Assembly: GCF_017348835.2 (NCBI RefSeq)
Contig: NZ_CP071375.1
DNA from: Escherichia coli
Lineage (GTDB): Bacteria > Pseudomonadota > Gammaproteobacteria > Enterobacterales > Enterobacteriaceae
Length of the DNA stretch: 64,000 nt
Reading direction: 5' to 3' (one strand)
Shown here: in pieces, positions 3,536-25,508 of the stretch
Position numbering within the stretch: position 1 is the first letter of the stretch
How the letters are laid out: each line of letters starts with the position of its first letter
Translations under genes and position numbers: made by a program
The notes under the pieces: generated by a model
The model's input: the letters and a program-made list of their open reading frames with translations, nothing else
What the model was told of the DNA's origin: nothing
Databases searched by the model: none

Positions 3536-4420
3536 TCAGTCAGTATCCCTTCGCCCGTAAACCTGCGCCACATACCGCCCGCGCCCGTCGCCGTGGCCCA
3601 AATCCATCGACGTCATCGCCAGCGCTTCCTTCTCACAAAATCCCTGCGCCAGATAATGACGAATGGCATCCTGCGCCCATGCGTAGCGCAACGAGTGCGG
3701 GGAATATGCGCCCGTTAAGCCAAGACGTGACGCCTGACTGTGCCAGTATTTCATCGCGCTTTTCAGATCCGGCTTATCTATCAGTCTGCCGTGACGATCT
3801 TCTGCCACCGCCAGCGCATTATCCAGCGCGTTTCTGACAGCAACAGCATCAATAATAATTGTCTCACGGGGTCGCCCGCCTTTGGTGCCGAACACCACGG
3901 TTAAGCGAGTGTCACCAAGATCCAGCGCCTGCCGCCACGTTTTCAGCGATTGTGCGCTTTGTACCGCCTCCTGCGAACGTAATCCCATCAGCCTTGAGAG
4001 TTCCAGCGTTGCCGCCAGCCCCGGATCTTTTGCGCGGGCGGTTTCCAGCACATGGCGGTAATGCTCCGGCGTGATGGCCCGCTTCGTACCGTTACGGGAT
4101 GCGCCAGACAGGCCCAGCGAGCGGTTATTCAGTCGCTCACTCTGCGCCAGCCTGTCACGCCCGGCCTGTTTCAGAATGCAGCGCACCGCCGCCATCTCAT
4201 TTTGCAGGGAACGCTTCGTGATACCCTGCGCCAGTCGTTCACGAACATATCCCTCAATATACCGCGCCTTAAGCTGCTCCACCCGGCGGATCTGCACATT
4301 CTGTGCCAGAACCAGACGCTCACAAAACCGCTGCACCAGCTTAATACGGTCGTGAACGGTCTTATGGCTGCCGCCCGCCTGCTGTGCCAGTCGCTTCATT
4401 TCCTGCTCCAGAATCCCCAT
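3536..4420 (-). CDS. Short tyrosine site-specific recombinase (phage-integrase family, Xer-like size)
   Basis: 294 aa; catalytic-type residues in RLMGLRSQE (Arg), HSLRYAWAQ (H-x-x-R) and C-terminal GRGRYVAQVYG (Tyr). Confidence 0.7.
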   Translation of the reverse strand: MGILEQEMKRLAQQAGGSHKTVHDRIKLVQRFCERLVLAQNVQIRRVEQLKARYIEGYVRERLAQGITKRSLQNEMAAVRCILKQAGRDRLAQSERLNNRSLGLSGASRNGTKRAITPEHYRHVLETARAKDPGLAATLELSRLMGLRSQEAVQSAQSLKTWRQALDLGDTRLTVVFGTKGGRPRETIIIDAVAVRNALDNALAVAEDRHGRLIDKPDLKSAMKYWHSQASRLGLTGAYSPHSLRYAWAQDAIRHYLAQGFCEKEALAMTSMDLGHGDGRGRYVAQVYGRRDTD

Positions 4421-5046
4421 ACATTCCCCCTTTCATGATTGCCGCAAACTCATCCCCAAAAACTCAACACTGATACAGCGTTCCCCGGCGCACAGGCCGA
4501 TAGCCCCTGAGTTTTGTCGGGGCTGCGAACGATACCTGAGCGCCGGGGCGGCAGCCGTTGAGGTGTGGTGGGGCTTCGGTTGTGCTCTCAGAGCAGCCGC
4601 CCGCTTGCGCGGGTCATCCCCCGGATCGTCCAGATCCGCCTCGGTATCGGTTCATGTTCTCCTTATGGGTAAATGGCCTGAAAAGGCGGTGTCAGAATCC
4701 AGCCATGAGCTGGCGCAGTTGAGTTTTCTGGTGCAGGTCGAAAGGGCTTGCGTGCGTCACTTTCCCGCTTTGCGCGGTTAAAGTGACGCACGGATCTGGT
4801 GCAGCATCTGAGATTTATCGTCTGGTGCAGTTTTACGGTCACGCGGCAGCAAAGCCTGACGGCAATGCAGGCCGCAGCCCGTAAGGTAAAAGGCGCTGAG
4901 GGTGTCAGCAGATGCAGGTTAGCCGGGAGAATTCCGGCGCGGTGCAGATTCAGACCAGCAGGCTGGCGAAGTAAAAGGATGTATCGTATTAAAACTCTGG
5001 CCTCCGTCGCGATGTTCTGCGACCCGGTGTTTGCAGAGGTCTGCAC

Positions 5047-5195
5047 CGGTAAACGGATCGACCGTCCTGATAACAGGCGCTTCTTTCAGGTTGTGAAGCG
5101 TTGGGCGCTGTCTACGACAGCATAGAGCAAGGGGGAGACTACGCCTGTGCCGCTGGCGCGGAAAGGAGAAACTGTTTTTACCTGCAAAAGGATTT
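5047..5195. repeat. Imperfect direct repeat, copy A, flanking the toxin-antitoxin cassette
   Basis: Shares ccggtaaa...ccgtcctgata.caggcgcttctttcaggt...tgaagc and gaaactg.ttt..c.g..aaaggatt with 6016-6147. Confidence 0.5.
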
Positions 5196-5269: not shown

Positions 5270-5602
5270 TCAGCTCAGAATAGCTTCCAGTCGAGCCAGC
5301 ACCTCATTCACGACAGCATCGGGTATACGTTCCAGCCGCTTACCGCTCCGAGCTCCCATATCAATGGTTCTGGGCTGGTCGCAGCGAATAACGCCCGTTG
5401 TTTTTGTTCCCGCCCCGTCCAGTGAAACGGTAAAACCGGCTTCGCGGGCAAAGTTTCCGCCGCTGGTGACAGGGACAACAACAGGCAACCGGGTGAACGT
5501 GTTAAACGATGCCTTCGATACGATGAGTACCGGACGTTTTCCACTTTGTTCATGGCCAGTGGTGGGATCCAGTGAAACGAGCCAGATTTCTCCTCTGTCC
5601 AT
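5270..5602 (-). CDS. PemK/MazF-family endoribonuclease toxin (ChpB-like)
   Basis: 110 aa; GEIWLVSLDPTTGHEQSGKRPVLIVS and GGNFAREAGF resemble ChpB/MazF. Confidence 0.85.
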   Translation of the reverse strand: MDRGEIWLVSLDPTTGHEQSGKRPVLIVSKASFNTFTRLPVVVPVTSGGNFAREAGFTVSLDGAGTKTTGVIRCDQPRTIDMGARSGKRLERIPDAVVNEVLARLEAILS

Positions 5603-5860
5603 CTACAGGATCTCCTTGCCCACCGCAGGCGCATCAATCCATTCCCGACCCTCTTCGCTTATTTCAGCGTGCGGATCGCACTGCGCCAACAGTTCTTCGA
5701 GCGAATAGCGGGGACGTTTTTGAGGTTCAATAATCAGGCAGCCATCATCAATGGTCATGCCCACTTCGCTGTCCGTCGACAGCCCTAGCGTTTTCAGCAC
5801 GGCGGGGGGAACCGCCAGCATGACGGATCCGCCAACCTTTTTCAGGCGAGTGGTATACAT
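5603..5860 (-). CDS. MazE/ChpS-like antitoxin
   Basis: ATG at 5858-5860 with GAGGTG just upstream; 85 aa; RYSLEELLAQCD motif as in ChpS; stop abuts the toxin start. The longer ORF-track call (to 6013) is taken as an upstream extension. Confidence 0.8.
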   Translation of the reverse strand: MYTTRLKKVGGSVMLAVPPAVLKTLGLSTDSEVGMTIDDGCLIIEPQKRPRYSLEELLAQCDPHAEISEEGREWIDAPAVGKEIL

Positions 5861-6147: not shown

Positions 6148-6208
6148 TGACGGTTCGGATAAACAAAATGCGGCGCAGCTTCCGTATCCGGGCTGCGCCG
6201 CAGGAACA

Positions 6209-6415
6209 TCAGCGGTAGCGCGAAGGCCAGATTTGCTCAGGCTTGAAGCCTAACGCTTCGGCAATTAACCTTTCGCCTTTGGGCCAGCGGCGGGTAAGCG
6301 CATTAGCCAGCGTGGAGGACGCCAGACCTGCCTGACGCGAAAGCGCTGACAGCGAAGTGCCTCGTTTTTTCAGCCCGGCGATAATGTCGGCAGGATGCCA
6401 GTCCTGCAGCATCAT
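6209..6415 (-). CDS. Ner/Nlp(SfsB)-family small DNA-binding protein
   Basis: 68 aa; WHPADIIAGLKKRGTSLSALSR...STLANAL...WPKGE...WPSRY matches the Ner/Nlp family. Confidence 0.8.
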   Translation of the reverse strand: MMLQDWHPADIIAGLKKRGTSLSALSRQAGLASSTLANALTRRWPKGERLIAEALGFKPEQIWPSRYR

Positions 6416-6873
6416 GCAGCCACCTCGTCGATAAACTTCACGCCGTCGGCGGTGCGGAGCCAGCGCGGGGCTTTCATTTCGGCGGCAAAATACCAGACCA
6501 GTTCACATAATAAGCCTGTTATCGTCTGCTCCACTTTTGGCTGCATCCCCTGCCCGATAAGAAGTTGCGCCAGCGTCAGTGAGTAATCACAAAGTAATTC
6601 TGCGTCGGGGACAAATCGGGGCATATCGGCAGGTAGAGCATCAACGGTCAGGCTGTCAGTCAGATGAGACGGGATGGGGTCGTTCAGCGTGGGTTGCAGC
6701 AAAGTGAGACAGGCGGCAAGTCGCCCGCAAAGCGCCAGCCGCAGCACCGGATCTTCGCTTTCGATCAGGGTTTCGGCGACGTTTTCGCAGTGGTCTGCCA
6801 GTACGGTAAAATCTGTGGCAGCACTGAAGGGAACAGCAAGTAACGGGTGTGTCTGAGTGGGGATCGTAGCCAT
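6412..6873 (-). CDS. Hypothetical protein, 4-bp overlap with the Ner-like gene
   Basis: 153-aa ORF with high GC and no motif I recognise; the overlap suggests an operon with the Ner-like gene. Confidence 0.5.
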   Translation of the reverse strand: MATIPTQTHPLLAVPFSAATDFTVLADHCENVAETLIESEDPVLRLALCGRLAACLTLLQPTLNDPIPSHLTDSLTVDALPADMPRFVPDAELLCDYSLTLAQLLIGQGMQPKVEQTITGLLCELVWYFAAEMKAPRWLRTADGVKFIDEVAA

Positions 6874-7035
6874 AAAGGCAGCCTCCAGTATGTGGTTTGA
6901 AAACCACCACCAGAGGTTCCAATCTCATGGGTGGTGGACTGAACGAGGTTGGAACTACCGGCCATACTGGAACCGGCGCACCTTACGGTGCCCCCGCCCA
7001 GCCCACCATAATTTTGGTGTAGCTAAGCGCGCGAC

Positions 7036-7058
7036 ATAAAAAAAGACGCAGACGCGTC
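7036..7058 (-). terminator. Possible intrinsic terminator for the AT-rich two-gene operon
   Basis: Minus-strand hairpin gacgc-gtct-gcgtc followed by a 7-nt U-run, about 190 bp downstream of the 534-aa ORF. Confidence 0.4.
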
Positions 7059-7243
7059 ACGTGTCGCCAGTATGGTTATATTTCGGGGTTCCAATCCCGG
7101 CACCTGATTTTGCAGGTGCGGGTAAAAGATACCGCTTTCGGTTGAAAACGGCAAGGGGAAGTCGTGGAATAGAGATCGCAGATTGTTATAAATATACACA
7201 ATAGTTAATGTTAACAAAGACGGCACATATATTAACTTTACTC

Positions 7244-8848
7244 TCAATCTGCTGAATAGTTTATCGCATGTAATTCTCGGGTCATATAGTGGATACCCTC
7301 CTTCTTTTCTTTCATCCCCTCTTGCCTCACCATAAAAGCAAACGAAAAAATTGCTGAACGAGTTATCTGAAGTAAATGCTCAAAATGGTGAATAAAATCA
7401 CTTTCTTTGATAAAAAGAATATCTTCTATTAGTTGATAAGATTCGTAAATGTCCTCAGGTTTATCACTTTTATGTACAACTAAAAACTTATGCTCTAAAC
7501 CATTGCGCCATTCTTTATAGAAAGCCAACTCCCCACCCTTATCTTTATTCAGGTCGGTAGCAATACTGTACAGCGCCAGAAGCCCTGGTGATTTTACCTT
7601 TTCAAATAATTGTCTTCTGTTATCAACATCTAACTGCCAGAAATTCTGAAAATAGATATTCTTCTGAGATGTACCTTTTTTTGTTGTTGGGTAAAGATTA
7701 TAAAGTTCACATATGGCTACCGCAATTTTATCAAGAATACCAAAGCAAAGACGAAATGCCGTCCTGATTTTTTCAATTTCTATTCCTAAAACTTCGTCAT
7801 TATACAATTCCAGAAAATGGCTTTCGTACTTAATGTAATCCGTATTTTGTGGATGAAGATAATCAAAATAAAGATGGCGTGCGAGTGAAAACTCCGATTT
7901 AAGGCGATTTAATACCATCTCCATGGGAATGATAAAATCACCTGTTACACCGCCTCGCGAAGCAATCACAAGATCATCTGTAGCACTCCCTACACATGGG
8001 CAATACAGGCCATGTTCTGATAAAGTCAGATGATTTCTAAGACAAAACTGTCGATATGGGCTTAACGCTTCGAACTCTTGTTGTGTAAGTGCTTCATCGT
8101 GTTCGTCAGTTTCATCATCAACAGCATATTCTGCGATTTTCTCGTTAGTCTGCGCTATGCGTTCTAAATAGAACGATTCCCATTGTGGTGGGATATTTTT
8201 TGATACAGACGCTTTAATATATCCTGCTCTCACTTCTTTTAGTAACTTGATTGAAAATGAAGATGAAATAAGATTGAGGACCATAAGTGACATCGAACGG
8301 TTGACCCAAGCCTGTGGTATATCTAATCCCTTAAGATTGGTAAGATCATAATATCTCAATGACTCACTGAGCCGAAATTGACTTCTTAATGAATTAGCCA
8401 AATTAACAGATAGTTCAGCCTGAAATTCCTCCTGCTCCTCAGCAGATAGCTTAAAAGAACGCCAGTAGATATTTTTTAAGGAAACCAATTCTTCTATCGA
8501 TTTGAATGTATGGTCATTGGGGTTAGTAATGCTCACCAGATTAGATAGCGCATTACCATAGTTATAATAGTAAAGGCACTCTCCTAACACTGATATAAAT
8601 GCTTCTTTGTTATCTTCCATCAGGTTGCAACCAAGCTCTGACGCATTTTTATTATTTTGCATCTGCCCGATGTCAACAAGAGCACCCGCAATGTTCGCCA
8701 ATACTATAAAGTAGTTATCGTTCCTGATTGTTATTCTTTCCAGTTTGTTCAGGAACGCAACTGACTGTTGATAAGATTCGTCAAATCTTCCAATATCAAC
8801 CAGTTGGCTAATGAAATTACTTTCATCGACAAGTTCTTTTGTTATCAA
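7244..8848 (-). CDS. Large hypothetical protein with C-terminal HEPN-like motif (candidate RNase effector)
   Basis: 534 aa, strongly AT-rich coding sequence, TTG start 12 nt after the upstream gene's stop. C-terminal EWRNGLEH fits the HEPN R-x4-H motif. Confidence 0.6.
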   Translation of the reverse strand: MITKELVDESNFISQLVDIGRFDESYQQSVAFLNKLERITIRNDNYFIVLANIAGALVDIGQMQNNKNASELGCNLMEDNKEAFISVLGECLYYYNYGNALSNLVSITNPNDHTFKSIEELVSLKNIYWRSFKLSAEEQEEFQAELSVNLANSLRSQFRLSESLRYYDLTNLKGLDIPQAWVNRSMSLMVLNLISSSFSIKLLKEVRAGYIKASVSKNIPPQWESFYLERIAQTNEKIAEYAVDDETDEHDEALTQQEFEALSPYRQFCLRNHLTLSEHGLYCPCVGSATDDLVIASRGGVTGDFIIPMEMVLNRLKSEFSLARHLYFDYLHPQNTDYIKYESHFLELYNDEVLGIEIEKIRTAFRLCFGILDKIAVAICELYNLYPTTKKGTSQKNIYFQNFWQLDVDNRRQLFEKVKSPGLLALYSIATDLNKDKGGELAFYKEWRNGLEHKFLVVHKSDKPEDIYESYQLIEDILFIKESDFIHHFEHLLQITRSAIFSFAFMVRQEGMKEKKEGIHYMTRELHAINYSAD

Positions 8849-24294: not shown

Positions 24295-25182
24295 TCAGGC
24301 TGCCAGATCATTATTTCCGATGGAAGCATAATAAGCTTTTTCTGCTTCTGCCGGAGGAATATGGCCCAGCCTTTCCAGCAATCGTCGATTGTTATACCAG
24401 TCCACCCACGTTAGTGTGGCCAGTTCCACTTCTGTCCGGTTTTTCCAGCTCTTACGGTGTATTACCTCCGCTTTGTAAAGACCATTGATGCTCTCAGCCA
24501 TCGCGTTGTCATACGAGTCGCCAGTACTCCCTGTTGATGCCAGTAATCCGGCTTCCTTAAGCCGCTGCGTGTAGGCCAGCGATACATACTGAGAACCTTT
24601 ATCACTGTGATGGATTGTGCCGGACGGCCGACGGGCCCACAACGCCTGCTCCAGTGCATCCAGCACGAATGTTGTTTCCATGGATGATGAGACCTGCCAT
24701 CCCACGATGTATCCGGCGAACACATCAATGATGAACGCCACATAAACGAAGCCCTGCCATGTGCTTACCCAGGTAAAATCAGCCACCCACAACTGGTCTG
24801 GACGTTCTGCCACGAACTGACGGTTTACGCGGTCGCATGCGGCAACGGCTTTCCGGCTGACGGTAGTGCGGACCTTTTTACCCCGGAGAACACCGGCAAG
24901 TCCCATAACTGCCATGAGACGTGCCACAGTGCATCTGGCCACTCTGATACCTTCCCGTAACAACTGACGCCAGACTTTACGCACACCGTATACCTGGTGA
25001 TTTTCATCGTATACGCGCTGTATCTCTTTCTTCAGCCAGTCATCGTGCTGCGCACGGGCACTGCGTTTATCCGGATGATGTCGCTGTTGCTGACAATGGT
25101 AATACGTTGACGGGGCAATATGCAGTTCGCTGCATACCGGTCCGACCCCGTACTGCTCACGCAGCTTATCCAGCAGTGGCAT
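24295..25182 (-). CDS. IS3-family transposase OrfB
   Basis: 295 aa, near-identical to 12141-13028. Confidence 0.85.
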   Translation of the reverse strand: MPLLDKLREQYGVGPVCSELHIAPSTYYHCQQQRHHPDKRSARAQHDDWLKKEIQRVYDENHQVYGVRKVWRQLLREGIRVARCTVARLMAVMGLAGVLRGKKVRTTVSRKAVAACDRVNRQFVAERPDQLWVADFTWVSTWQGFVYVAFIIDVFAGYIVGWQVSSSMETTFVLDALEQALWARRPSGTIHHSDKGSQYVSLAYTQRLKEAGLLASTGSTGDSYDNAMAESINGLYKAEVIHRKSWKNRTEVELATLTWVDWYNNRRLLERLGHIPPAEAEKAYYASIGNNDLAA

Positions 25183-25508
25183 TATTTTTTCCAGAGGCGG
25201 TCGAACTCCGCCTTCGCAAAATAAGCGGAAGCCTGGCGAAGGATATCGTTACTGCGGCGCAGTTCACGATTTTCACGTTCCAGCTCTTTCAGACGCTGAC
25301 GTTCAGCGGTGGTGAGTCCACCATCACCACTCCCGGTATCCCGCTCATGCTGGCGAACCCAGACACGCAGAGTCTCCGGCGTACAGCCAATCTTTGGGGC
25401 AATGGAACAAATTGCCGCCCACTGTGAGTCATATTCATCCTGACTTTCCAGAACCATACGAATCGCCCGCTGACGGACTTCGGGGGAAAAACGAGTATTT
25501 TTAGTCAT
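25182..25508 (-). CDS. IS3-family transposase OrfA
   Basis: 108 aa, identical to 11815-12141 product. Confidence 0.85.

What the first reader, a model, noticed from the sequence alone, without database searches (positions are those of the whole stretch)
6209..7035. Ner/Nlp-like regulator in an overlapping operon with an unrecognised 153-aa protein, next to the candidate operon
The Ner-like gene overlaps the end of a GC-rich 153-aa ORF by 4 bp, implying co-expression. The pair sits between the TA module and the AT-rich operon and has different base composition from both. Ner-family proteins are small phage-type repressors, so this may be a regulatory module controlling neighbouring cargo. The upstream leader (6880-7030) contains a ccaccacc/ggtggtgg stem and two ggttccaatc motifs 170 bp apart.
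Basis: partly seen in the sequence, partly recalled or inferred. Interest (0 to 1): 0.35.

Follow-up and report, generated by a model that had tools for sequence, protein, structure and literature searches.

The report
Antisense-RNA-gated two-gene operon in island
The Ner-like gene and the unknown 153-aa gene are real and co-expressed, and they sit behind a phage P4/P1-type antisense-RNA switch in the conserved backbone of a mobile E. coli defence island, so they do not look like a dedicated regulator of the neighbouring genes.

Summary
A 153-aa ORF (6412-6873, minus strand) overlaps a 68-aa Ner-family gene (6209-6415) by ATGA, and both leader motifs exist.

The motifs are explained by known RNA families. 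Reading 5'->3', the leader holds a conserved promoter, an isrK/c4-a1b1 element (7039-7132) with its own terminator, and a C4/CI-type antisense RNA (6927-7013). The "ggttccaatc" repeats are the b1 and b2 targets of C4. The ccaccacc/ggtggtgg stem presents b2. A second target, a2, overlaps the orf153 Shine-Dalgarno.

Across 34 related leaders, both intermolecular helices covary (95-100% paired, 12 of 16 pairs with double changes). This is the P1 c4-icd-ant / P4 CI-kil-epsilon / Gifsy-1 isrK-orf45-anrP design with a different payload.

orf153 is a genuine, conserved, acidic helical protein with no known family or fold match. Its function remains unknown.

The roughly 1-kb cassette (6213-7192) is backbone of an asn-tRNA island. 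Variable toxin-antitoxin and defence slots flank it on either side.

Verdict: a new variant of a known kind, of moderate interest.

The parts
7126..7154 (-). Promoter-like element: -35 TTGCCG (7149-7154), 17-nt spacer, -10 TATCTT (7126-7131). The inferred start site is near 7119.
   Evidence: CTTGCCG-N17-GGTATCTTT is conserved in nearly all related loci. It was not found by the strict consensus scan. The start site is inferred, not measured.
7039..7132 (-). isrK-like leader sRNA, equivalent to the a1/b1 target element. b1 UUGGAAC lies at 7088-7094 in a hairpin loop and a1 CAUACUGGC lies at 7066-7074.
   Evidence: Rfam isrK 72.6 bits (GA 50) and c4-a1b1 48 bits (GA 46.7). b1 is an exact complement of b' in 34/34 loci, and a1 matches with at most 2 mismatches in 33/34.
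7038..7058 (-). Intrinsic terminator ending the short isrK-like RNA. Read-through would give the long transcript.
   Evidence: Terminator scan: GACGCGTCTGCGTC followed by T7; fold. This matches the Gifsy-1 IsrK short and long isoforms (PMC4825925).
6927..7013 (-). C4/CI-type antisense RNA. a' UCCAGUAUG (6963-6971) is the loop of hairpin 2, and b' GUUCCAA (6949-6955) is the single-stranded segment.
   Evidence: Rfam C4 83.2 bits (GA 45). MFE -48.2 kcal/mol, z -5.55. Internal helices are 99-100% paired with compensatory changes.
6904..6937 (-). CCACCACC/GGUGGUGG hairpin displaying b2 (UUGGAAC, 6916-6922) in its loop. Its 5' arm is also the 3' arm of the C4 closing stem.
   Evidence: The hairpin is 96% paired with 2 covarying pairs. 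b'-b2 is 100% paired, with 5 of 7 pairs changed on both sides.
6882..6892 (-). a2 target (CAUACUGGA, 6884-6892) overlapping the Shine-Dalgarno GGAGG (6882-6886) of orf153.
   Evidence: a'-a2 is 95% paired, with 7 of 9 pairs changed on both sides; 0 of 500 shuffles reach the observed values. GGAGGCTGCC-N3-ATGGCTAC is invariant in P4, SfV, phiP27 and an Stx2a phage.
6412..6873 (-). orf153: a conserved, acidic (pI 4.3), helical protein of unknown function, and the first ORF after C4.
   Evidence: 444 homologues; 183 clusters at 50% identity; third-codon-position excess 5236:3932:10400; AF2 pLDDT 88, pTM 0.80. No Pfam, NCBIfam, PHROGs, PADLOC, PDB or BFVD match.
6209..6415 (-). Ner-family HTH gene, translationally coupled to orf153 through an ATGA overlap.
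   Evidence: HTH_35 at 113 bits; phrog_769 transcriptional repressor; Mu Ner 1neq E 9e-27 and EnrR 7f9h E 9e-23; conserved junction GAGGTGGCGGCATGATG.
6161..6201 (-). Intrinsic terminator closing the operon: a 10-bp GC stem at 6170-6201, then AUUUUGUUU.
   Evidence: Fold -28.1 kcal/mol, z -5.51. Homology with the MS20657 island begins only at 6213.

Best explanation
Window 6161-7154 (minus strand) is one transcription unit, built like the immunity regions of phages P1 (c4-icd-ant) and P4 (CI-kil-epsilon) and the Gifsy-1 isrK-orf45-anrP locus.

A conserved promoter drives a leader. Part of the transcripts stop at an intrinsic terminator and give an isrK-like RNA that carries decoy sites b1 and a1. 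Read-through yields the C4 antisense RNA, which by homology is probably excised by RNase P.

Shown by covariation: the a' loop and b' segment of C4 pair with b2, presented in the loop of the CCACCACC/GGUGGUGG hairpin, and with a2, which covers the Shine-Dalgarno of orf153.

Inferred: C4 thereby blocks orf153 translation. Through the ATGA overlap it also blocks translation of the Ner-like gene. The operon would then be silent in an established host and expressed only when C4 is absent or titrated, for example on entry into a naive cell or by an excess of a1/b1 RNA.

Also inferred: the Ner-like protein is a small DNA-binding regulator acting on the island's own backbone, by autoregulation or on the recombination module, and not on the cargo. 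orf153 is a protein-binding effector occupying the icd/kil slot, and its biochemical role is unknown.
For: - Rfam hits above gathering score for C4, isrK and c4-a1b1; the same models hit P4's CI RNA and its leader.
- In 34 leaders from Enterobacterales, the a'-a2 and b'-b2 helices are 95% and 100% paired, with 7 of 9 and 5 of 7 pairs changed on both sides. There are at least 6 b-specificities. 0 of 500 shuffles reach the observed values, and slid controls fall to 29-43% paired.
- b1 and a1 covary in the same way.
- The cassette is found at -255..-55 from orf153 in at least 40 of 51 loci.
- The promoter is conserved, and terminators are present.
- The ATGA coupling is conserved, and the same design is seen in P4, phiP27 and Stx phages.
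- orf153 and ner are under coding constraint.
- Cassette boundaries at 6213 and 7192 coincide with breaks in homology between islands.
- ner co-occurs with the downstream Integrase_1 gene: 17/8/2/19, Fisher p = 7e-5.
- The cargo is hypervariable.
Against: - There are no expression or processing data. The start site, RNase P cleavage and the direction of regulation are all inferred from homologues.
- In Gifsy-1 the isrK RNA activates rather than represses (PMC4825925), so the net logic may be more complex.
- An alternative hairpin that sequesters the Shine-Dalgarno in cis is energetically favoured. It shows no covariation above shuffles.
- The payload is not an antirepressor as in all studied relatives.
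- The function of orf153 is unknown, and the fold searches were uninformative.
- The Ner-Integrase_1 association is not corrected for phylogeny.
- An AF2 model of an orf153-linker-Ner fusion gave no evidence of a complex (pTM 0.52).
Confidence: 0.75

Rival explanations
1. The Ner-like protein, with orf153, regulates the adjacent AT-rich cargo operon, for example by counter-silencing H-NS as the island-encoded Ner homologue EnrR does.
For: The cargo is 36-37% GC, a typical H-NS target. EnrR (PDB 7f9h, E 9e-23 to this protein) binds AT-rich palindromes, antagonises H-NS and binds upstream of an OLD-family nuclease gene (PMC9023278). An AT-rich stretch lies just upstream of the promoter, at about 7165-7215.
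Against: The cassette occurs with unrelated cargo in either orientation, and also without any cargo. 23 of 51 loci have orf153 and C4 but no ner. The 68-aa protein lacks the N-terminal extension that EnrR needs for H-NS competition; it aligns to EnrR residues 16-81. Its synthesis is predicted to be repressed by C4, unlike the abundant EnrR.
Confidence: 0.15
2. orf153 is an antirepressor-like or helper-manipulating factor, the functional analogue of P1 Ant, P4 epsilon or Gifsy AnrP. The island would then be a satellite-like element that senses or exploits a phage.
For: Every characterised C4/CI cassette gates an antirepressor or derepression gene. A 37%-identical homologue lies in a P4-like satellite early operon, next to a Derepression-family gene and a primase. 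The protein is acidic and helical, which is compatible with protein binding. The b-specificity is identical to that of phage phiP27.
Against: There is no sequence or fold similarity to Ant, epsilon, Kil, P4 ORF151 or the phiP27 first ORF. In known systems the antirepressor is the second, coupled ORF, not the first. The island has no sid, delta, psu, alpha or epsilon.
Confidence: 0.2
3. The pair is a toxin-antitoxin-like or abortive-infection module. orf153 would be toxic like P1 Icd or P4 Kil, and Ner would be its neutraliser or autoregulator.
For: The first ORFs of P1 and P4 cassettes are toxic (established knowledge for Icd and Kil). The partners are acidic and basic (pI 4.3 and 10.9). The gene overlap is tight.
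Against: orf153 occurs without ner in 23 of 51 loci. There is no PADLOC or TA-family hit. The AF2 fusion gave no confident complex. Separate TA modules already sit next door.
Confidence: 0.1
4. The region is a decaying relic of a P4-like or lambdoid immunity region with no current function.
For: The island lacks satellite core genes. IS elements disrupt the neighbourhood, and in LF82 an IS disrupts isrK itself. Lone remnants exist.
Against: The ORFs are intact with a third-position excess. Compensatory changes are maintained in three sets of RNA pairings. The promoter and the ATGA junction are conserved across genera.
Confidence: 0.05

Closest known systems
Phage P4 immunity region (PLE leader with seqA - CI RNA - seqC - kil/eta - epsilon)
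   Same: The same Rfam families appear in the same order: isrK-like leader, then C4/CI. The GGAGGCTGCC-N3-ATGGCTAC initiation region is identical, and the first ORF begins MAT. The second ORF overlaps the first. A P4-type integrase lies at the tRNA (51-64% identity).
   Different: The payload is orf153 plus a Ner-like HTH in place of kil plus epsilon plus the primase. There is no sid, delta, psu, alpha or AlpA. The operon points toward the integrase. The a/b specificity differs.
Phage P1/P7 immI (c4 - icd - ant)
   Same: An antisense RNA with a' and b' segments, a1/b1 targets upstream, and a2/b2 targets over the RBS of the first ORF, which is translationally coupled to the second ORF (mechanism from established knowledge; structure tested).
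   Different: There is no Ant-type antirepressor. The element is chromosomal and carries defence cargo.
Gifsy-1 isrK-orf45-anrP (PMC4825925)
   Same: A short terminated isrK RNA plus a read-through mRNA; an AUGA-coupled ORF pair; complementarity between isrK and the downstream region.
   Different: There the downstream gene is an antirepressor, and IsrK was shown to activate translation in trans. Here the region downstream of isrK is scored as a C4 RNA, and the payload differs.
Mu Ner / E. coli Nlp (SfsB) / Edwardsiella EnrR
   Same: HTH_35 fold family; 1neq E 9e-27 and 7f9h E 9e-23.
   Different: It is not an SfsB orthologue: 105.9 bits against a cut-off of 150. There is no Mu context. It lacks the EnrR N-terminal extension.
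ROD21-like (EARL) asn-tRNA islands
   Same: Integration at asn tRNA genes with a P4-type integrase (PMC6035254).
   Different: EARL islands use an AlpA/Vis-type RDF, SEN1998. No AlpA-like gene was found here. This backbone instead carries an Integrase_1 gene, EFASI RNA, a TA slot and the C4 cassette.

Membership tests
C4/CI antisense-RNA immunity cassette (P1 immI / P4 type) | C4-family RNA with the conserved three-helix structure | tested here: met
   RF01695 at 83.2 bits against GA 45. Helices are 99-100% paired with compensatory changes.
C4/CI antisense-RNA immunity cassette (P1 immI / P4 type) | a'/b' segments complementary to downstream a2/b2 covering the RBS of the first ORF | tested here: met
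   Complementarity of 9 and 7 nt. a2 overlaps GGAGG. 12 of 16 pairs covary, and 0 of 500 shuffles reach the observed values.
C4/CI antisense-RNA immunity cassette (P1 immI / P4 type) | Upstream a1/b1 copy of the targets in the same transcript | tested here: met
   RF03163 at 48 bits against GA 46.7. b1 matches in 34/34 loci and a1 in 33/34.
C4/CI antisense-RNA immunity cassette (P1 immI / P4 type) | Processing of the RNA from the leader by RNase P, and repression of downstream expression | not testable with these tools
   Needs Northern blots, an rnpA(ts) strain and reporter fusions.
C4/CI antisense-RNA immunity cassette (P1 immI / P4 type) | Payload is an antirepressor or derepression protein (Ant, AnrP, epsilon) | tested here: not met
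   No PF25738, Ant or KilA-type hits. orf153 has no family and ORF2 is HTH_35.
Ner/Nlp family (Pfam HTH_35) | HTH_35 domain above the gathering score | tested here: met
   113 bits against 25; 1neq E 9e-27.
SfsB (Nlp) equivalog | NCBIfam NF007670 score of at least 150 | tested here: not met
   105.9 bits.
EnrR-type xenogeneic nucleoid-associated protein | N-terminal extension (about 15 aa) required for minor-groove contacts and H-NS competition | tested here: not met
   The 68-aa protein aligns to EnrR residues 16-81 of 90; the requirement is described in PMC9023278.
P4-like satellite | Core set psu, delta, sid, alpha, epsilon and alpA together with the integrase | tested here: not met
   tblastn with P4 proteins finds only Int in the window and in the 51 related loci.
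Pfam PF10554 'Ash' protein | A genuine protein domain upstream of or fused to orf153 | tested here: not met
   PF10554 matches only N-terminal extensions that translate the C4 RNA. In the window that frame has stops. In P4 it maps onto the CI RNA.

The most novel reading that the evidence does not exclude
The C4-gated orf153-ner operon may be an entry or infection sensor for the island. When C4 is absent (arrival in a naive cell) or titrated by a1/b1 RNA from a phage of matching specificity (for example the phiP27 b-type), Ner and orf153 would be made. They would then switch on the H-NS-silenced, AT-rich defence cargo and/or island excision. That would make a defence island inducible through RNA specificity matching.
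Probability: 0.1. Interest if true: 0.7.

Novelty: new variant of a known kind. Interest (0 to 1): 0.4.

Why it matters
C4/CI-type RNA switches are understood in P1 and P4, where they gate antirepressors. Here the same switch gates a different, uncharacterised payload, and it diversifies into many specificities. It sits at the edge of a hypervariable defence-gene slot in a widespread family of asn-tRNA islands. Working out what orf153 and the Ner-like protein do could show how such islands establish, excise or respond to phages. The analysis also shows that the Pfam 'Ash' family, used as a P4-satellite marker, is a translation of the RNA gene. That affects genome annotation and satellite detection.

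Tried and rejected
- Family scans of orf153 against Pfam, NCBIfam, PHROGs and PADLOC found nothing.
- A profile search of PDB sequences gave only a chance hit at E 0.06.
- Foldseek of the AF2 model against PDB and BFVD returned only generic four-helix bundles, with E > 0.01. The afdb50 library was unavailable.
- hhalign of the orf153 profile against P4 ORF151, the old P4 cI ORF, P4 Kil and the phiP27 first ORF showed no similarity.
- An AF2 model of an orf153-(GGGGS)6-Ner fusion, built on 16 paired sequences, gave pTM 0.52 and no confident docking. I treat this as inconclusive.
- The cis hairpin that sequesters the Shine-Dalgarno is plausible on energy grounds but is not supported by covariation.
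- A megablast search of plasmids found no match.
- I found no Ner operator. A TGCGA(T/G)C motif upstream of the promoter occurs with and without ner.
- A literature search for EruA/HyoA found nothing.
- Identity with ROD21/EARL islands is rejected, because their RDF is AlpA-type.

Full report
**Observation.** On the minus strand, a 153-aa ORF (6412-6873) and a 68-aa ORF (6209-6415) overlap by ATGA. The small protein belongs to the Ner family. It matches Pfam HTH_35 at 113 bits against a cut-off of 25, PHROG 769 'transcriptional repressor', Mu Ner 1neq at E 9e-27 and EnrR 7f9h at E 9e-23. It falls below the SfsB equivalog cut-off, at 105.9 against 150 bits. GGTTCCAATC occurs twice in the window, at 6915-6924 and 7087-7096, where 0.13 occurrences are expected. 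The CCACCACC/GGTGGTGG arms lie at 6930-6937 and 6904-6911. The pair is 57% GC and the upstream genes are 36-37%. The TA module (55%) and the Integrase_1 gene (59%) are similar to the pair, so the pair shares its composition with the island backbone.

**Where the window comes from.** The window is 100% identical to the chromosomes of E. coli PE164 and F2_81. It covers an island inserted at tRNA-Asn next to mtfA. The order is: P4-type integrase, IS66, an Integrase_1-domain gene, MazEF, ner, orf153, a LA2681-HEPN gene, and a NACHT gene cut by IS3.

**What the leader is.** An Rfam scan places three families above gathering score on the minus strand just upstream of orf153:
- C4 antisense RNA at 6927-7013 (83.2 bits, GA 45).
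- isrK at 7039-7119 (72.6 bits, GA 50).
- c4-a1b1 at 7080-7132 (48 bits, GA 46.7).

The same models hit P4's CI RNA (8420-8507) and the leader upstream of it.

Read 5'->3', the unit has the following parts:
- A conserved promoter, TTGCCG-N17-TATCTT, at 7154-7126.
- An isrK-like RNA with b1 (UUGGAAC, 7094-7088) in a hairpin loop and a1 (CAUACUGGC, 7074-7066).
- An intrinsic terminator at 7058-7038.
- C4, with a' (UCCAGUAUG, 6971-6963) in the loop of its second hairpin and b' (GUUCCAA, 6955-6949) single-stranded. The fold is -48.2 kcal/mol, z -5.55.
- A CCACCACC/GGUGGUGG hairpin displaying b2 (6922-6916).
- a2 (CAUACUGGA, 6892-6884), overlapping the Shine-Dalgarno GGAGG (6886-6882).
- The orf153 ATG at 6873.
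- After ner, a strong terminator at 6201-6161 (-28.1 kcal/mol, z -5.5).

**Test by comparison.** A scan of one genome per species found 51 loci encoding orf153 relatives across Enterobacterales. C4 lies at -140..-55 in at least 40 of them, and the isrK/a1b1 element lies at -255..-165 in nearly all.

In an alignment of 34 leaders, pair counts are as follows:
- C4's own helices are 99-100% paired.
- The intermolecular b'-b2 helix is 100% paired, with 5 of 7 pairs changed on both sides. At least six specificity types are seen (GUUCC/GGAAC, AGGCU/AGCCU, AGGUC/GACCU, AGACC/GGUCU, AUGCU/AGCAU, AUGCC/GGCAU).
- The a'-a2 helix is 95% paired, with 7 of 9 pairs changed on both sides.
- 0 of 500 shuffles reach the observed values. 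Sliding the partner by 1-3 columns drops pairing to 29-43%.

b1 is an exact complement of b' in 34 of 34 loci, and a1 matches within 2 mismatches in 33 of 34. The CCACCACC/GGUGGUGG hairpin is 96% paired with two covarying pairs. An alternative hairpin that sequesters the SD in cis is the MFE of the post-C4 leader, but its covariation is not above shuffles.

This is direct comparative evidence that C4 pairs with the orf153 translation-initiation region and with the decoy upstream. That is the anatomy of P1 immI and P4 immunity.

**The design is modular.** The leader is 70-75% identical over about 210-240 nt in 222 phage records, including Stx phages, phiP27, SfV and APSE. Aligned with P4, SfV, phiP27 and an Stx2a phage, GGAGGCTGCC-N3-ATGGCTAC is invariant, and every first ORF starts MAT. 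The second ORF overlaps the first in P4 (GTG of epsilon over the kil stop) and in phiP27 and the Stx2a phage (ATGA). In Gifsy-1 the isrK RNA is a terminated isoform of the operon mRNA, orf45 and anrP are AUGA-coupled, and IsrK activates in trans (PMC4825925). What changes from element to element is the payload. The body of orf153 shows no similarity to P4 Kil, P4 ORF151 or the phiP27 first ORF.

**The proteins.** orf153 is a real gene:
- 444 homologues in the word-indexed search and 183 clusters at 50% identity.
- A third-codon-position excess of 5236:3932:10400.
- A confident AF2 model: pLDDT 88, pTM 0.80, four long helices plus a C-terminal beta-hairpin.
- It is acidic: pI 4.3, with a family median near 4.6.

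It matches no Pfam, NCBIfam, PHROG, PADLOC or PDB family. Structure searches return only generic helical bundles. A 37%-identical relative sits in a P4-like satellite early operon, between small ORFs and a Derepression-family gene plus primase. Other relatives are lone a1b1-C4-orf153 remnants between core genes.

ner follows orf153 in 28 of 51 loci, usually with the ATGA junction. In the remaining loci, variable genes follow: HsdM, a D12 methylase, RhuM, HipA, an integrase, or core genes. Presence of ner is associated with the Integrase_1 gene downstream: 17/8/2/19, Fisher p = 7e-5, not corrected for phylogeny. An AF2 model of a linker fusion of the two proteins gave no confident assembly (pTM 0.52).

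**Relation to the neighbours.** Megablast against 5,426 E. coli genomes finds the cassette in 43, all chromosomal, at different asn-tRNA genes. Homology between islands breaks at about 7192, 38 nt upstream of the -35, and at 6213, the ner stop.
- Upstream, the cargo differs. It is HEPN plus a full-length 1354-aa NACHT plus an AAA ATPase in MS20657, and two large proteins plus a Gabija-like nuclease/helicase in LF82 and related strains.
- Downstream, the TA slot differs: MazEF or RelE/HTH.

Across 47 loci, the 81 ORFs nearest the promoter carry 95 Pfam families. None occurs in more than 3 ORFs, and many are defence families, including AbiE, type I RM, Lamassu, DruM, SIR2, Schlafen and DUF4917. 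The roughly 1-kb cassette is therefore a constant backbone element flanked by two variable slots, not a regulator tied to this particular operon.

A generic effect on AT-rich cargo remains possible by analogy with EnrR, an island-encoded Ner homologue that antagonises H-NS (PMC9023278). However, the 68-aa protein lacks the EnrR N-terminal extension and is predicted to be kept off by C4.

**What the island is not.**
- It is not a P4-like satellite. Only Int is detectable; there is no sid, delta, psu, alpha, epsilon or AlpA.
- It is not a ROD21/EARL island, because the RDF of those islands is AlpA-type.

**Mechanism I commit to.** This is a P1/P4-type antisense-RNA gate on a two-gene operon. C4 masks the orf153 RBS (shown by covariation). 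ner depends on orf153 translation (inferred from the conserved ATGA). The isrK-like RNA carries competing target sites (shown); whether it acts as a sponge or an activator is unknown. Expression is expected on arrival in a C4-free cell or when C4 is titrated. Ner most likely regulates the cassette or the recombination backbone. orf153 is an effector of unknown activity in the icd/kil position.

My confidence is high in the RNA-gate part and low in the protein roles.

**Verdict.** The payload and the genomic setting are new. I rate it a new variant of a known kind, with interest about 0.4.

Noticed in passing
window 6874-7013; L002 15689-15985; L003 (P4) 8330-8521: Pfam PF10554 'Phage_ASH' and the RefSeq name 'ash family protein' correspond to a translation across the C4/CI RNA gene. 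The match falls on N-terminal extensions of orf153 homologues that read through C4, and on P4's obsolete cI ORF over the CI RNA. True epsilon is PF25738. PF10554 was used as the epsilon marker for P4-like satellites (PMC8628076), and a 2026 preprint reports many 'Ash pseudogenes'.
   Followed up: yes
window 4526-4655 (-): There is an EFASI RNA motif here (118.7 bits, GA 51.2), about 105 nt upstream of the Integrase_1-domain gene (3536-4420) on the same strand. It may be a leader or single-strand element for that recombinase.
   Followed up: no
window 4983-5122 (-): A STAXI-like match sits just below threshold (37.3 bits, GA 40.5) between the EFASI motif and mazF. STAXI motifs have been reported near integrases, antirestriction genes and c4 RNAs (PMC2864571).
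   Followed up: no
window 8861-11725 (-) and 11815 onward: The NACHT gene matches NCBIfam EruA only from profile position 399 onward and abuts an IS3 element, so its N-terminal ~400 aa are missing. An intact 1354-aa version with the same HEPN partner and an extra AAA ATPase is present in strain MS20657 (L065). The defence operon in this window is therefore probably inactive.
   Followed up: partly
L065 10825-11485 vs window 5270-5860: The slot between ner and the Integrase_1 gene holds different toxin-antitoxin pairs in different islands (MazEF here, RelE/ParE plus HTH in MS20657). This is a second variable slot.
   Followed up: partly
L066 (E. coli LF82) 13000-14146: In LF82 and about 20 related genomes, homology to the cassette ends at window position 7096, inside the b1 loop, where an ISEc1 element is inserted. 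This removes the promoter and the 5' part of the isrK-like RNA.
   Followed up: partly
L067 2447-3106, L068 2273-3106, L069 2141-2977: In phiP27, an Stx2a phage and SfV, the isrK-C4 cassette lies inside ORFs annotated as 'transcriptional regulator', 'phage regulatory protein' or 'Rha'. The likely real first ORFs start after the cassette at GGAGGCTGCC-N3-ATG (120, 120 and 77 aa).
   Followed up: partly
window ~7168-7185; related loci at about -320..-300 from orf153: A conserved TGCGA(T/G)C-containing motif (AATCTGCGATCT in the window) lies about 15-30 nt upstream of the -35. It is present in loci both with and without ner, and its binding partner is unknown.
   Followed up: no
L055 7065-7780: Minimal stand-alone a1b1-C4-orf153 units, with no integrase, ner or cargo, sit between core metabolic genes in some genomes. 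The RNA and orf153 persist together as a unit.
   Followed up: partly
window 12096-12212 (+) and 25111-25227 (-): Two inverted IS3 copies (ALIL pseudoknot hits with identical scores) bracket about 13 kb and interrupt the NACHT/yeeJ junction and yeeO. This suggests IS-mediated rearrangement of the asn-tRNA region.
   Followed up: no
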